A DNA stretch of 64,000 nucleotides, taken from the NCBI GenBank assembly GCA_000182565.2, contig KQ257450.1. One strand, given 5' to 3'. A program made the translations under genes and the position numbers. Below, piece by piece: positions 8,586 to 15,868 of the stretch (position 1 is the stretch's first letter; every line of letters starts with the position of its first letter). Source of the stretch: Spizellomyces punctatus DAOM BR117. Lineage: Eukaryota. The notes below the pieces were generated by a model. It was not told the origin of the DNA. It did not search any database and saw only the letters and a program-made list of their open reading frames with translations.

Positions 8586-10648
8586 CTACAACTTGGCCTT
8601 CGGGGCACCTGCACTAGCCTGTCCCGCCAACTCGGCTTCAAATACTGCCCGCATGTCCCGGAGTGCTTCAGCAAGATAAAAGTGCATCCGGTCTGCGCGC
8701 ATTTCGTTCAAAGAGGCAACATTCAGGTGGAGAGAGCGTTCCTTGACCATGTACGCAATACCAAAACCGTCTGGCACAACCTCTCCCCATCCGTAACCAT
8801 CGTAGTATTCTGAAGAAATCTGCGACGTTGAAAGGAACCAGTGCTTGGAGTACTCAAAGGCCGGGTCTTTGAAGAAGGCTGGCACTGGTTCTCCGGGCTT
8901 GAGAGAGAGCTTCAGCCCAAGCCACAAGCGGTCAACACCCTTGTTTTCAACGGCATCATTCATGTACTTGACGTGAGACCCTACAGCTTTTCTTCCGAGC
9001 TCGGCCTTCTTCAGTGGTGACACAGTAGGATCTTCCATAGCCTTGACCCAGTCAACACTCTCGATACTAACGGACCGGCAAGTTTCTGTGCGTCCGAACG
9101 CAAACTTTCTAGTCTGTGCACTCTCGTAAGTGGGTCTAGAAACACCGTGCATTTTGTAGTATGCGAGTTGGATCGCCATTTGCACATACGCGTCAGGAGA
9201 CATTTTGAACTTTTTGATAAGATCTTTGCCGTAGTCAAAGAAAGCTTGGACGCGCAAATCGTGGCGTGCAATGAGGGAATCAAAATGATTTTCTGCCGAT
9301 TCAATACGGCTGGAGAGGGAAGGAGTCAACTCAAACGCGAGCTGTTGTGGGTTAGGCAGTTTGGAGGTAGCGCTGGGCGATCCATGGTTGATCTTGTTGC
9401 GATCAAGCCCAGTGCATATCCAATCGCACATGTTGCTTGTAGGTGTACCGTCCATCATCGAGTGCTCGCCAAGGAAACCAGCCTTGCCATTTTCAAACAC
9501 AATGAACTGCAGAGGCTTGTCAAAGAAGCGGTTGCGTCCGTCTCCGTGCCAGCAAGCACGACTGGCTTCATCACGAGTGACGGGCGAACTGTCATCCAAG
9601 CAAACAACAAATGCAGCTCGCTCAATAATGTCCAAAGAGGCGCGATTTTTAGGGGACTGCACAAGCTCTTCCCGGGTCTTTGTCCAGATATCTCTGTGCT
9701 CAGAGGTCAGAACGCCAATGGAAGGCGCTGCTTTATCACCGGCTTGATCATAGATTGCCTGAATTTGTCTGGATCGGCCGAATGTGAGTGGAGACCGTCA
9801 TCAGCGTGCAACAACCGCCCAGCACATACCTTTCAATCTCAGCGGTTGAAAGTTGACGACCATCGGGATGACGGGTATCAAAGGTGAAAAACTGATTCTT
9901 GCGGATGACAACAACGTGAGTGTTTTGACGAGGATCCGACACCCGAGTGGTATCGGAGGGAATCTGAGGGATACGGCAAGCATTGAACATCCACTGATAT
10001 TGATCCATAGACAGAGCGCCGCCTTTAAACATTTCGGGCTTCAACTCCTCCTCGACGACAAGGCGCTTGAATTCCAGCGCACCAGTTATGAGGGCAGCGG
10101 CACGCGTTACAGGAGCCTTCCATTCCTTTCTCAACTCATCCTTAAAAACGAAAAAGTAGGAAACATTGATAACGACCGGGTCTCTGTAACCCATATAGGA
10201 CCAGTCGTTCCACCAATCATACAGCCAGCTGGTCGACGAGGTGGCAGCGCGCTCCTGCAGTCGCTTGTGCAATTCCTCGCCCTTTCCGCCAGGAGCAATG
10301 AATTCTCGTACAACTTTTTCAGAGTGTGCATATTCTGCGTCAGACAAGATGGGTTTCAAGCTGCGAAGGTACTTTGTCGCAGTTTCTTGAAGCGGAGCAA
10401 CCGGCAACTTGGGAACAGCATGCTGTTGCGCAAAGAGGGGCTTGTTTGGTCCCGAGGGAGTGAGAGGATGCATGTTCAAGGCGGTAGTGGTGGCAATTGA
10501 ACGGGTGCAAAGAGCTGAAAAAGAGTGCTAAAGAAACAAATCAGTTCCCGGGCAACTCCGTAGCAACCGAGACCATTTTGCCATTTACCTGAGTCGTCCG
10601 AGTCTGTAATGTGCGTGATAGCAATTGCGATGGAGCACGAAACAGCAT
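8586..10648 (-). CDS. CAT2: Carnitine O-acetyltransferase with an N-terminal mitochondrial presequence and a C-terminal PTS1 (AKL)
   Basis: Exons are 10648-10589, 10527-9830 and 9768-8586. Motifs include PKLPVAPLQET, SWLYDWW, NRFFDKPLQF, catalytic GEHSMMDGT, SPDAYVQMAIQLAY, YESAQTRKFAFGRTETCRS, LSTSQ and GWGEVVPDGFGIAY. The protein ends in AKL. Confidence 0.95.
10544..10567. promoter_or_regulatory. Tandem RFX X-box-like sites in intron 1 of the carnitine acetyltransferase gene
   Basis: GTTCCCGGGCAAC (10544-10556) is followed by TCCGTAGCAAC (10557-10567). Both carry the RGCAAC half-site of RFX/Crt1-family sites. Confidence 0.4.
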
Positions 10649-10971: not shown

Positions 10972-12191
10972 CTAGTTTAGCAAATCTTGAATTCTGAATC
11001 GGTGTGCTTCGCTGGCCTTGGCCCCACTATTCTCCTCCTCCATGTCCCAGATAGTACCCATGTCTATCGATTGGGGTGCGCGAGCCAATTCTTGTGCGGC
11101 ACAATGTGCCAAGGTCAACAGTGATGCATCGTCGCTGTCCGTCGCTGATTTGGGCGACGGCGCTTGTATGCTACCAGCAAGAACGGCATGGAGAGAAGAA
11201 CGAGAGAGTTCCACTTGTGCTGATTCCAGTGGGTCATGGCAAGCTGGAATCACGCACGGAGCATTTTCTACAGAATAGTAATCGCCACGGGTATGGTCCG
11301 TTTTGCAATCTTGGAAGCGTATCGTTGTTAGCAGCTTTTCCCCAAAATTTCATACTGTCATGACCATGCTTATCATACCTCGACAAAATTGTTGCATCGC
11401 ATGTCGACTGTAAATGTGGTCAACAAATGTCACCAAATCTCGAGTGCCGATGGCTGTACAGCCCTGAGAGTGTTTCTCAGGCTCGTGAGCATGTCGCCGT
11501 GCTTCTAAATGGTGCGACAAGTGATGACTGGTGAGGAGCGTTTTGCATCCCTTGACTGGACACTGATATAATGCTCGGTCTCCGTTTGCCACAACCACAA
11601 CCGCCGCCGAGGCAAGCTCTCGAAGGCGTGCGGGGCATATAACTGGACCTCTAACGGGAATACTTTTCGATGGTGAAAGTGATACAGAGGACGGTGATGA
11701 CTCTGAGGTCATGGAGACACTTGGCCGAGGTGAGGGAAGAAGGGCAGGATAGGGACGTGTGCGGGAACGGGAGGCTGAAATCAAGACGTGTGGGGAAGGT
11801 GCTTCAGACGAATTTGGGGCTTCTCCAGAAGCTGAGGGTATGACAACATTCGGACGAAAGCTGTGTATCCGATAGTGACGTTGAAGTGCATCCATTCGGG
11901 AAAACCTGCAAGTTACCAGATAAGGATTCCTGGAAATAGCACTATATCCATTTTGCAAGCAGCAACATACCCTCTGCAGCATATTGTGCATGGATAGGGC
12001 TTCTCTCCGCTGTGTGTTAGCTGGTGGCGAACCAAGTGTTCCGTGCGCCGAAACGAAAGGTTACAGTCTGAGCATTTGTATCTCCTCTGCTGAACGGTGG
12101 ATATGACGGTGTTGTCCATAGAACCAACGTCGTCCGTCATTGATGCGTCAACCTGTTGGTCGGTCTCTGCGCCGTCGGCGACACCGGCCAT
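10972..12191 (-). CDS. C2H2 zinc-finger transcription factor, 3 exons
   Basis: ZF1 is YKCSDCNLSFRRTEHLVRHQLTH, followed by the linker SGEKPY. ZF2 is CTICCRGFSRMDALQRHYRIH, restored by removing intron 11970-11906. Degenerate fingers follow (CPVKGC...HLEARRH), then a second intron at about 11378-11268 and the C-terminus FRIQDLLN. Confidence 0.85.
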
Positions 12192-12488
12192 GGCTACTAT
12201 ATGTCCTTTTCCCAAACCTCTTGCAAGCGGTGAAATCAAAATGTTGAAAAATCAAACCCTCCGGGCCGTGTGGGGAAGCCTTCCGCCAGCGATGCGCAAA
12301 TAGCTGTGGCGATTGGCGAAATTTCGTGATTTGGAATCGAACTTTGTGTACACATTAATCCGCATTATGCATTCGAATGGCATTCCAAGCTTACATTCGG
12401 ACGTTGTCGGACACGCTTGGTCAACTTTGCATCTCGTTCACGACGTTAGAATGCAGCCAGTGTTCTCGCCTTTCCAATCCCCGACAGA

Positions 12489-14821
12489 ATGGCAAGGGGG
12501 CCATCCAACGACAGCCTGTCTTCGCCATACCGTGTTACCGTGTCTCATGGACAGCTAGATGCAGCTCTGCTTGCAAGTCCTGCTCCCGATACGTCGTCAG
12601 CAGAATTGAGGCGAAGATTGAGGGAAGCACAATGGGCTCTCAGGGAAAAGGACGAAGGTGCAAAAGAGTTTGGATTTGTCCAATACGATTTTATGAGTAA
12701 CCTTTGTTTTCTCTAGCACTTGAAAAAAAGGATAATGGTACCTCATCTACTGTTTTGTGTAGCATGATATGAGCCGTTAACGTTTCGGTTCTGGCAGATT
12801 TAGTCATTGCAGCTGAACTGGGGTCGTCGCTATTGGAAGACAATGAGCGTCTCAAAGCTGAATGTGCAAAATTACTGGCAGAATACCGATCGACATCCGC
12901 AGTGGCTGTCGCCATAGCCGCCCATCCGCCAACAGCTTTTTCGCCAACCTCTCTCCACAAACCGTCCACACCAGGTAGTGCGTCCTCTACACCCATCTCT
13001 GCGTCTCCTGGCACCAATCTGCTTGAAGAGGCCAAGCGTCGAACAATAGCCATTGAGGCTGCGGCCTCTGCTCGTATTGGTGATCTTGAAGCTACCATTT
13101 TGGACCTGCAATCTCACGTGGATCGACTGAGGGCTGACATTCGCGCCTCTCAGGACGCCGAACGCGCACAAGAGCGTCGTTCGCAACGTCTAGAGAGTGA
13201 GAACGAGGTAATATCACGAGACTTGGACGCCGCTGTGTCCAAGTGTCAAGAGTTGGAAGAGGAACGCAAGAAAATAGCAAAAGAAAAGGCGGAGCTCTTA
13301 CGTCGGGTAAAGGACGTAGGGGAAAGGGATAAGGAGTTGGAGGAACTAGCAGAGTTGAGAGATCGGTCCAAGGCATTAGAAGAGGTGGTGGTGCAACTTA
13401 CTCATTCACGGGCAGAAATGGAGGCGGAGCTAGCCGAGGCTCTGCAAGACCGACGGCATGTGGACCAAAGATGTGAGGAACTGGAAGCAGTCGCTGAGGA
13501 CTACCGGATGGAGAGCGAGCGACAGGCTGCTAGAATGGATGAGCTGGTTTGGGAATTAGAGTCATCAAGGGACTTGATCGCTAAATTACATTCACGTCTC
13601 GCCGTCCTGGAGCCCGCCAGGGATGGGCCGGAGGACGCAGGCGACCGAACTCTTTTTAGCGAGGTTGAAGATAGGCGACGAGAATTGGAAAATAGGCACC
13701 AGAATCTAACGCAAAAACACGCAGGGCTGCTTAAAGCACATTCCGTAACAATACATCAACAGGAACGAATGCGAAATCACATTTCAAGGTTGACTCAGCT
13801 TACAAGTGCTCGACAGGGAGAACTCCGAATCCGTTTACTGGAAGAAGCTCTGGGGCAAGCAGAGAGCGAAAAGAGGGAGATGCAAGCAAAACTCGCCCTA
13901 TTAGAGAAGGGGAGAGGGATAGAAACTGATTTAATCGGTGTGGAGGGGAGCAACGGACCAGATATGGGAACAGTCTCCCCAAGTCAATATGAAGTCCAGC
14001 TCGAGTGCCTTCGTCTGCGAGTTTCTCAATTGACTGAAGAGAACGACGATTTGAAACGAGAAGCCCGAACGGGTCGTATGCTAAAGTCTTTTGAGACCGA
14101 GAAATTGAGAAGCGTGGAAGCGGTCTTGAGAGAACGTGAAGAAGAGCTTTTAAGACTGAAATCAATTAATGCTCAGATCAAGTTTGATTTGGATGAAATG
14201 AAGTCGAGGTTCAAGAGAGCTCGGGGCCTGGATGCCGAGGGGTCAGACAAGGCGGCTACCGACGGCAAAGCAGTTGGGGCTAATACATCACCGACCAGCA
14301 AGTCGACCGGTGTCCAGACACAATGTCTCGTGGAGAAGAGTTTACATGATAAGGAAAGCCCTCCAAGAGAGGATCCCCGAAAATCACGAGACGTTGTATC
14401 TGAGCCATTGAATGCTACTCACGGAAACAATACCTCTAGTTCCAACCAGGAAAACTCTGGTCCTTTGCCAACGGGCCAGAGTCTGCACGATAAGCCGTGT
14501 TCAAGCGCATCTTCTGAGGTTGACCCAGACGCATCCATTTGTTCCAACGCATCAACGATATCCAAGGCCAGTCAGCGTAGCTACCTAGCTACTGGTCGTG
14601 GAAAGTTACCACTACAAGAAACACAACCCGTGGGAAAAATCATAACCAGCAACAATCTGAATGAGATCCCGCCATCCGCTTCACCGGGTGATTTGAGTAG
14701 CAAAAGCACAGGAATTCTTAGTAAACGCGATGGGCCAGGAGGTCAAAAGGCAGGACCAACACAGGTGTACGTGGGACGCGAAAATGTTCGATCCGATGTA
14801 AATCAATGTAACCAGCAATAA
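12489..14821 (+). CDS. SPDL1: Spindly-like coiled-coil dynein-dynactin activating adaptor
   Basis: Exons are 12489-12657, a 21-nt microexon 12717-12737 and 12798-14821. It has a CC1-box-like DLVIAAELGSSLLEDN, a long coiled coil, the Spindly motif GDRTLFSEVEDRR (about 13640-13680), a disordered tail and the C-terminal CaaX box CNQQ (human Spindly ends in CPQQ). Confidence 0.8.
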
Positions 14822-14956
14822 TAGAAAGTCTAGATTCGCCATTACAGAACACTATCGGGAATGCGCATGTGCATGAGGTCCCAGCTCGTCCTACCGGAAA
14901 CCGCATTGTCCGGCAGACACTACGGCCTACGCTATGTACTGGGGGCTACACAAGTT

Positions 14957-15868
14957 TTAGACTGATGCTGACTCTGCTTTCTTGAGGGCATCACGCTCGG
15001 GGACCGTCAATGGGCCGCATAAGCCATGATACGACTTTACAAACTCATCAAACACCTTGAGCAGACAATGTAAGTGACAAGCAAGTCCTCACGTTTCACT
15101 TGCAGTTTGACGTACCACGCCAGCGTGTTCTGGTCCGAAATGCTGCCCTGTCAATTCCCGTAATCCTTTCCAGAAAGCAGGGTTCCTTCCTTTTATTTTA
15201 AAGACATCTGTTGGTGAAGTAGATGATGTGTGGGTAGCTTTGGATCGACTATGTGCGGTGTCGGTTGGCGCTTCCTCATGCTTCTCCTGCGATGCAGCAA
15301 CTGGCTTCTTCAAAAGATGGATGGTCGCTCCAGAGACGATTTCGTAATCCAACAAAGTCTTTGTGTCCACTAGTCCTTTGCCATTATAGACCAGCCGTTG
15401 CGCCGCAATGGGTATACCAGCTTCAGTGGCTATACGGGATTTGATATCACCGATAGGTTCTAACCGTGCGGCACGGATAGTAAAAGCCTGTCCACCCTTT
15501 AATGGTTTGATGTTTATTTCTACTTCGTTTGCGGCAGGGGAAGTGGCCACATCGTCAGGCTCCTACGAGTACGCGGAACTGGTATTAGGTTTCCCTTTTG
15601 GTTATTCCTATGGGAATCTCAATCTGTCAAGATCTTACTCTTAGTGGAAATGGGCGGCTCGCGGGTGGAAGGGTAGCGTGGCAGTTTGCGAGGGGTGGCT
15701 CAAAATTGAGTTGGTACTGAATTGGCTGTGATGCTAGTTGATGGAGGAAATGAGTGGCAAACTTGAGCTGCAACAATGAAGAAGCACGCAATCAATGACT
15801 TTTGGTTTTCCCAGCTGCAAGTCTATCTGACACCTTACCTCCTCCGCTGGGCTCATTATAGTCGTCAT
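14957..15868 (-). CDS. GET5: Get5/Mdy2/UBL4A ubiquitin-like protein of the GET pathway, 4 exons
   Basis: The N-terminal segment ELKFATHFLHQLASQPIQY is of the fungal Get4-binding type. The central UBL domain includes IKSRIATEAGIPIAAQRLVYNGKGLVDTKTLLDYEI. The C-terminal helical domain reads PAFWKGLRELTGQHFGPEHAGVVFDEFVKSY. An alternative start lies at 15856. Confidence 0.8.

What the first reader, a model, noticed from the sequence alone, without database searches (positions are those of the whole stretch)
12489..14821. Fungal Spindly-like protein with all three animal hallmarks, including a CxQQ farnesylation box
Seen: a CC1 box (AAELG) that only appears after splicing through a 21-nt microexon, the Spindly motif TLFSEVEDRR, and C-terminal CNQQ at 14807-14818. 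Established: human Spindly uses the CC1 box for dynein LIC, the motif (GNSLFAEVEDRR) for the dynactin pointed end, and farnesylated CPQQ for RZZ binding and kinetochore corona assembly; budding and fission yeast lack it. Inference: a farnesylation-dependent RZZ-Spindly corona may predate the animal-fungal split and still operate in this fungus. Automated pipelines would probably call this a hypothetical coiled-coil protein.
Basis: partly seen in the sequence, partly recalled or inferred. Interest (0 to 1): 0.72.

Follow-up and report, generated by a model that had tools for sequence, protein, structure and literature searches.

The report
Chytrid Spindly, already published
This is the chytrid fungus's copy of Spindly, the protein that links chromosomes to the dynein motor during animal cell division; the gene is real, but it and the idea that this machinery predates the animal-fungal split were already in print, and only its working in a fungal cell remains untested.

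Summary
One detail is wrong: AAELG lies wholly in exon 3, and the 21-nt microexon is frame-neutral; it only adds one heptad upstream. Orthology holds: coelacanth Spindly finds this gene alone in the genome, and the Spindly-specific CC2/CC3 region scores 60 bits on an animal profile. ROD, Zwilch, ZW10, LIC, p62 and p25 are present.

It is not new. This protein is listed as SPUN000835_Spindly, with Rod, Zwilch and ZW10, in van Hooff 2017's dataset. The chytrid farnesylation motif is in Holland 2015, and Wu 2023 already places RZZ-Spindly and its CAAX before the fungal-animal split.

Added here: ROD's farnesyl pocket looks intact (by-eye alignment), but the fourth animal motif (CC2 box/HBS1) is missing, and the listed CENP-E lacks a CAAX. 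Whether a corona forms is untested. Two look-ups of this scan's notes found nothing on it.

The parts
12489..12657 (+). Exon 1 (disordered N-terminus and start of the first helix)
12717..12737 (+). 21-nt frame-neutral microexon; adds one heptad just upstream of the CC1 box
   Evidence: splice sites, skip model in frame; extra 7 residues in 9 of 38 measurable proteins; no RNA junction seen
12798..14821 (+). Exon 3, carrying all named motifs and the stop codon
12809..12823 (+). CC1 box (AAELG, aa 68-72), inferred dynein LIC helix site
   Evidence: aligns with the BICDR1 CC1 box too
12923..13015 (+). Ser/Ala/Pro/Thr-rich disordered insert (aa 106-136) where animals have the CC2 box/HBS1
13649..13678 (+). 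Spindly box (aa 348-357), inferred dynactin pointed-end site
13652..14236 (+). CC2 and CC3 coiled coils (aa 349-435, 458-543), the Spindly-specific region, with R387-M-R389 at the place of human R295-M-K297
14237..14806 (+). Disordered tail, ending in a conserved P-x-x-V-x-V-like stretch before the CAAX box
14807..14818 (+). C-terminal CNQQ, inferred farnesylation site (Cys734)

Best explanation
The gene encodes the Spizellomyces punctatus orthologue of Spindly. Most likely it works as in animals. It is a parallel coiled-coil dimer, folded back and autoinhibited through CC2. Cys734 is farnesylated and the lipid docks in the ROD beta-propeller, which with CC2/CC3 ties it to ROD-Zwilch-ZW10 on unattached kinetochores. 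Once opened, the CC1 box binds the dynein LIC helix and the Spindly box binds the dynactin pointed end, so dynein strips RZZ-Spindly and checkpoint proteins polewards. Shown here: gene structure, orthology, motifs, predicted architecture, presence of the partner genes and conservation of their binding surfaces. Inferred from human work: dimer, farnesylation, binding, localisation, stripping. Whether the complex polymerises into an expanded fibrous corona is open (about 0.4).
For: Coelacanth Spindly P0131 (named) gives one match in the genome, this gene, E 8e-9, 17 of 17 candidates scored. The fungal and animal Spindly profiles align over 421 columns from CC1 box to CC3, probability 99.9. The region after the box scores 60.4 bits on the animal profile and -4.3 on the closest non-Spindly family; d'Amico 2022 says Spindly diverges from BICD adaptors there. 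The AlphaFold model has the human layout of CC1a/CC1b/box/CC2/CC3/disordered tail. F350 to R387 is 37 residues, as in coelacanth and human F258 to R295 (counted by eye). 93 of 106 non-seed relatives with the post-box region end with Cys at -4. The genome has Zwilch, Rod_C, two Zw10_middle loci, DLIC, p62, p25/DCTN5 and three Prenyltrans loci. The LIC helix-1 is conserved. All 11 hydrophobic ROD pocket positions named by Raisch are hydrophobic, and the helical hairpin has human length (residues 148-198 aligned by eye). The published dataset assigns this protein to Spindly.
Against: No experiment on the fungal protein was found. The CC2 box/HBS1 is absent: QE[KN][YH] is seen in 3 of 84 CC1-bearing hits, all three animal, and a disordered insert lengthens CC1-to-box spacing to 281 against 231-237 in six animal proteins. 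The best PDB match of the fungal profile is BICDR1 (E 7e-6), with no Spindly chain among the 60 shown. The N-terminal half scores higher on a Mucorales family without CAAX (104 bits) than on animal Spindly (18 bits). In ROD the L110 position is Phe, one of the three substitutions of an occluding human mutant, and both polar pocket residues differ. The one CENP-E listed for this species ends FSKS, without CAAX. Which Prenyltrans locus is FTase beta was not determined.
Confidence: 0.8

Rival explanations
1. It is a Spindly orthologue that binds RZZ at kinetochores but is largely uncoupled from dynein, acting as a structural or checkpoint scaffold, because the heavy-chain site (HBS1) is lost and the coiled coil is broken after the CC1 box.
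For: No QE[KN][YH] motif and a 31-residue low-confidence insert after CC1; spacing between CC1 box and Spindly box varies from 219 to 328 among fungal full-length hits.
Against: The CC1 box and Spindly box are among the best-conserved parts of the fungal alignment; LIC helix-1, p62 and p25 are present; CDR2 has a divergent HBS1 and still binds dynein-dynactin (passages).
Confidence: 0.1
2. It is a Spindly orthologue repurposed as a prenyl-anchored membrane or nuclear-envelope dynein adaptor outside mitosis.
For: A CAAX box is usually a membrane anchor (established knowledge); a related Mucorales family keeps the N-terminal half and ends in a hydrophobic tail, so retargeting has happened in fungi.
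Against: ROD and Zwilch are kept with it in this genome and co-occur with Spindly across species (r 0.73 and 0.80); CC2/CC3 and the ROD pocket are conserved.
Confidence: 0.08
3. It belongs to another CC1-box adaptor family (BICD, BICDR, TRAK, HAP1, CDR2) and resembles Spindly only through shared motifs.
For: BICDR1 is the best PDB match; Pfam HAP1_N matches 5 of 18 fungal relatives, though not this protein.
Against: Those matches stop at the Spindly box; an animal Spindly also hits HAP1_N below cut-off; the post-box region and CxxQ end are Spindly-type; the reciprocal search returns this gene alone.
Confidence: 0.02

Closest known systems
Spizellomyces punctatus Spindly, SPUN000835 in the supplementary ortholog archive of van Hooff et al. 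2017 (PMC5579357) = SPPG_00843
   Same: The same protein: three typed motifs from its start, middle and end each matched once, in this entry. The same dataset lists Rod, Zwilch, two ZW10, Mps1 and Ska1-3 for the species.
   Different: Nothing in sequence that I could see. The passages I read do not discuss this gene's microexon, insert or ROD pocket.
Human Spindly (SPDL1/CCDC99)
   Same: CC1 box, Spindly box, CC2 with R-M-K/R at 37 residues from the box Phe, CC3, disordered tail, CxQQ end.
   Different: No recognisable CC2 box/HBS1; a disordered insert after CC1; CC1-to-box spacing 281 against 234; a longer N-terminus with one extra heptad; no experimental data.
Batrachochytrium dendrobatidis Spindly and other early-diverging fungal Spindlys (Holland et al. 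2015, PMC4436830; dataset entries for Coemansia, Allomyces, Catenaria)
   Same: All 6 fungal entries in the dataset end CxxQ; Holland 2015 names the chytrid motif.
   Different: Most lack the extra heptad (25 of 38 measurable hits, some of them the Mucorales paralogues, have the shorter spacing).
BICDR1/BICD/TRAK/HAP1/CDR2 CC1-box dynein adaptors
   Same: CC1 box and a Spindly-box-like motif about 230-290 residues later.
   Different: No match to CC2/CC3 after the box; no CxxQ end in the aligned region (the match stops at the box).

Membership tests
Spindly (SPDL1 orthologues) | CC1 box AAxxG in an N-terminal coiled coil | tested here: met
   AAELG at aa 68-72 within helix 37-105; aligned to the animal box
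Spindly (SPDL1 orthologues) | Spindly box after a coiled-coil break | tested here: met
   aa 348-357 after loop 335-348
Spindly (SPDL1 orthologues) | Spindly-specific CC2/CC3 region after the box | tested here: met
   60.4 bits on animal profile, -4.3 on the Mucorales family; 64.1 bits on a post-box-only profile, against 2.8 or less for 11 non-Spindly hits
Spindly (SPDL1 orthologues) | C-terminal CAAX-like box (CxxQ) | tested here: met
   CNQQ-stop; reads cover the stop without a joint
Spindly (SPDL1 orthologues) | Reciprocal best match with animal Spindly | tested here: met
   Forward search reaches coelacanth Spindly at E 5e-4; reverse search finds this gene only. Single-protein query; no tree built
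Spindly (SPDL1 orthologues) | Co-occurrence with ROD and Zwilch | tested here: met
Animal-type Spindly motif set (Sacristan 2018: CC1, CC2, Spindly box, CAAX) | CC2 box/HBS1 (Qxx[HY]) about 30 residues after CC1 | tested here: not met
   Absent, replaced by a disordered insert. It is a motif shared with other adaptors, and the published Spindly ortholog set includes fungal members without it, so this marks a fungal variant and not exclusion from the ortholog group
Farnesyl-dependent RZZ-Spindly corona | ROD beta-propeller farnesyl pocket with full-length helical hairpin | tested here: inconclusive
   11 of 11 hydrophobic positions hydrophobic and hairpin ungapped against human, but Phe at L110 and L120 positions, weak tool alignment (E 0.09) for 82-134 and by-eye alignment for 148-198
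Farnesyl-dependent RZZ-Spindly corona | Farnesylated CENP-E supporting expansion (Wu 2023) | tested here: not met
   The one CenpE entry for this species in the 2017 dataset ends FSKS; the 2023 figure was not visible and may use another orthologue
Farnesyl-dependent RZZ-Spindly corona | Actual farnesylation, kinetochore localisation and MPS1-driven polymerisation | not testable with these tools
   Needs cells or purified proteins; Mps1 is listed for the species, but the ROD T13/S15 region could not be aligned
BICD/BICDR/TRAK/HAP1/CDR2 adaptors | Match to the family beyond the shared CC1-to-box segment | tested here: not met
   BICDR1 match ends at the box; no Pfam family for this protein at E 0.1; CDR2 was not compared directly

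The most novel reading that the evidence does not exclude
Spizellomyces builds a true, farnesyl-dependent RZZ-Spindly corona during its few-minute, fenestrated, synchronous mitoses, and does so without a farnesylated CENP-E and with a rebuilt dynein arm (no HBS1, a disordered insert, one extra heptad from a possibly skippable microexon). It would be the first corona shown outside animals in the papers I could search, in a transformable organism.
Probability: 0.3. Interest if true: 0.5.

Novelty: already known. Interest (0 to 1): 0.13.

Why it matters
As a sequence finding it matters little: the protein, its partners, its CAAX box and the evolutionary inference are published. What remains is an open experiment that Wu 2023 itself names, whether a fibrous corona exists outside vertebrates. 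S. punctatus can be transformed and imaged in mitosis, so it is a practical host for that test. The missing HBS1 and the apparent lack of a CENP-E CAAX would show which parts of the human mechanism are ancestral.

Tried and rejected
RNA check of the microexon: 4 runs laid, 508 reads from the one raw-read run, 3'-biased, no joints; one run gave nothing and two gave only unspliced or short contig pieces. Inconclusive. Metagenome scan for relatives' exon structure: 3 loci, all distant, none informative on the microexon. Pfam and PDB with the single protein: no family, no significant chain. PF28219, precomputed on all 19 hits, is not in the library here, so its name is unknown. Zw10_N found nothing, but Zw10_middle found two loci. 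A full-length chytrid ROD for a proper pocket alignment was not obtained: the hit P0141 lacks the propeller, and the hairpin exon alone did not hit human ROD. A search for 'CC1 box' + 'Spindly motif' + 'fungal' + 'adaptor' gave 0 papers. No complex prediction was run, because CC1-LIC is a solved pair and the ROD propeller was not available as one sequence. No tree was built. The supplements of Wu 2023 could not be read and figures are not held, so its species-level table was not seen.

Full report
OBSERVATION. The gene starts at 12489 and has exons 12489-12657, 12717-12737 and 12798-14821, with GT..AG introns of 59 and 60 nt. The spliced frame is 737 aa without internal stops and is identical to P0001, annotated as uncharacterized protein SPPG_00843 of Spizellomyces punctatus. 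Of 631 stop-to-stop frames of 50 aa or more in the window, 16 have Cys at -4 and only this one ends CxxQ.

THE MICROEXON. The box is encoded wholly in exon 3 and is in the unspliced 682-aa frame. Skipping the 21-nt exon leaves a 730-aa in-frame protein with the box intact. The exon adds seven residues, one heptad, inside a continuous predicted helix (aa 37-105). Nine of 38 proteins in which the upstream spacing could be measured have the extra seven residues, 25 have the shorter form and 4 have other spacings. Seven of the nine are named Spizellomycetales records; two are unnamed. One Geranomyces model has the heptad and another lacks it, which is either skipping or a missed exon. RNA did not settle it: four runs were laid, the raw-read run gave 508 reads concentrated at the 3' end, and no joints were listed. 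Those reads do cover the stop region without a joint (mean depth 35 at 14722-14818 in one read direction, taken as the sense strand by inference from a poly-T loose end), which supports CNQQ as the true end.

WHAT IT IS. A search of 1.84 billion representatives returned 134 proteins at E up to 0.001. With five further hits, 139 were examined: 105 have Cys at -4, 104 end CxxQ, and 59 match all three motif patterns. The list reaches coelacanth Spindly (P0131, E 5e-4) and a hemichordate Spindly (P0109), both named. In reverse, P0131 finds one place in the genome, window 13073-14215, E 8e-9. A profile of 18 fungal proteins aligns with a profile of 7 animal-type proteins over 421 columns from the CC1 box to the end of CC3. 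Two of those seven are named Spindly, one matches the Trichoplax entry by eye, and four were chosen by their GNSLF box. The region after the Spindly box is the diagnostic part: it scores 60.4 bits on the animal profile, and d'Amico 2022 states that Spindly orthologues diverge from BICD adaptors there (passages). Of 132 non-seed hits, 106 score 20 bits or more on a post-box profile, and 93 of these end with Cys at -4; 9 of the 13 exceptions are under 420 aa. The AlphaFold model (mean pLDDT 64, pTM 0.22, so only local structure is usable) shows helices 37-105, 138-234, 242-334, 349-435 and 458-543 and a disordered tail, the layout described for human Spindly. R387-M-R389 lies 37 residues from the box Phe, as in coelacanth and as human R295-M-K297, the autoinhibition patch (counted by eye).

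RESULTS AGAINST. The best PDB match of the fungal profile is BICDR1 (E 7e-6), and no Spindly chain is among the 60 of 62 shown; that match ends at the box. HAP1_N matches 5 of 18 fungal relatives, as it does an animal Spindly below cut-off. A family of nine hits, three of them named as Mucorales records, has a CC1 box and a degenerate box but no CC2/CC3 and no CAAX. The N-terminal half of the window protein scores 104 bits on that family and 18 on animal Spindly, and one member also finds this gene first in the genome. So the CC1 box and even the N-terminal half are not diagnostic. The CC2 box/HBS1, a fourth conserved motif in Sacristan 2018 (passages), is missing: QE[KN][YH] occurs in 3 of 84 CC1-bearing hits, all animal. 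In its place is a Ser/Pro-rich low-confidence insert, and the CC1-to-box distance is 281 residues against 231-237 in six animal proteins.

PARTNERS. The genome has Zwilch, Rod_C, two Zw10_middle loci (Zw10_N found none), DLIC, dynactin p62 and p25 and three Prenyltrans loci, not assigned to FTase or GGTase. The LIC C-terminal helix matches the human LIC peptides of the CC1-box structures (weak E 0.12-0.21 for a short motif). For ROD, Raisch lists 11 hydrophobic and 2 polar pocket residues and reports that worm and fly, which lack the Spindly cysteine, have a hairpin three residues shorter (passages). In this genome's ROD the equivalents are L100V, L108I, L110F, L119V, L120F, F124L (phmmer alignment, E 0.09) and M153L, I164F, L167M, L169M, I191I (by eye, ungapped, with exons read). 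All 11 are hydrophobic and the hairpin has human length. But N122 and S193 are Arg and Met, and L110F is one of the substitutions in an occluding human mutant. This is suggestive, not proof. The one CENP-E listed for the species ends FSKS, whereas Wu 2023 finds farnesylated CENP-E necessary for full corona expansion in human cells.

MECHANISM. Shown: gene, orthology, motifs, architecture, partner genes. Inferred from human work: farnesylation of Cys734, docking in the ROD propeller, kinetochore loading, release of autoinhibition, LIC and pointed-end binding, and dynein-driven stripping (confidence 0.8). Expansion into a fibrous corona is a separate and weaker inference (about 0.4), since the CENP-E input appears absent and mitosis lasts only minutes with a fenestrated envelope (passages; 4 min in the example shown). 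Rivals: RZZ-bound but dynein-uncoupled (0.1), a membrane adaptor (0.08), another adaptor family (0.02).

WHAT IS KNOWN. van Hooff 2017 (PMC5579357; passages and supplements read) lists this protein as Spizellomyces_punctatus_SPUN000835_Spindly, along with Rod, Zwilch, two ZW10, Mps1 and Ska1-3 for the species, and defines a co-evolving Rod-Zwilch-Spindly module. Its Spindly file, read in full, has 6 fungal entries from 5 species, all ending CxxQ, and no yeast entry. [quoted passage not shown] Other papers seen as passages: 10.1101/279398, 10.1101/2021.12.03.471119, PMC9481740, 10.1101/2024.11.06.622207, PMC11153136, 10.1101/2023.05.10.540161, PMC7213984. Searches that found no experimental study of a chytrid corona: (open-access library only). 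Two look-ups of this scan's notes found nothing on it.

VERDICT. The identification is correct and the gene is real, but the protein, its partners and the evolutionary inference are already published. Novelty: already known. Interest 0.13, for the small additions (ROD pocket, missing HBS1, CENP-E without CAAX) and because the open experiment is feasible in this species.

Noticed in passing
P0101, P0110, P0113, P0117, P0121-P0123, P0135, P0136 (alignment A3): An uncharacterized family (three members named as Mucorales records) with a Spindly-like N-terminal half, CC1 box and degenerate box, but no CC2/CC3 or CAAX and a hydrophobic, membrane-anchor-like tail. Possibly a Spindly-derived membrane dynein adaptor.
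   Followed up: partly
L015:2093-3655 (-), G000:C4 about 1,663,600-1,665,150: A second CC1-box gene (AAQVG) in this genome, the best HAP1_N match, with coiled coils and no clear Spindly box in this exon.
   Followed up: partly
L012, G000:C5:1305735-1306229 (-): Second match of the Mucorales family member P0101 in this genome (E 6e-6, coiled-coil region). Not examined.
   Followed up: no
window 14783-15562 (-): The convergent ubiquitin-like gene seems to polyadenylate near 14783 (8 reads with a poly-T loose end), so its 3' end overlaps the last codons and stop of Spindly.
   Followed up: partly
van Hooff 2017 supplement, entry TTRA002677: A Thecamonas kinesin labelled CenpE ends in a stretch that by eye resembles Spindly CC2/CC3 and in CNQQ. 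It may be a fused model or a sign of shared ancestry; not tested, and the passages read do not mention it.
   Followed up: no
window 14756-14773 (+): A P-x-x-V-x-V-like stretch 10-20 residues before the CAAX box recurs in many fungal and animal Spindlys, perhaps a strand that pairs with the ROD propeller.
   Followed up: no
window 11350-12251 (-): A C2H2 zinc-finger gene lies head to head with Spindly, its open frame ending about 240 bases from the Spindly start codon.
   Followed up: no
window 9748-10473 (-): Exon of a choline/carnitine O-acyltransferase gene; ordinary.
   Followed up: no
P0014: The 1128-aa Gonapodya 'Protein Spindly' looks like a fusion of an unrelated N-terminal part with Spindly, probably a gene-model error; left out of alignment A1.
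   Followed up: no
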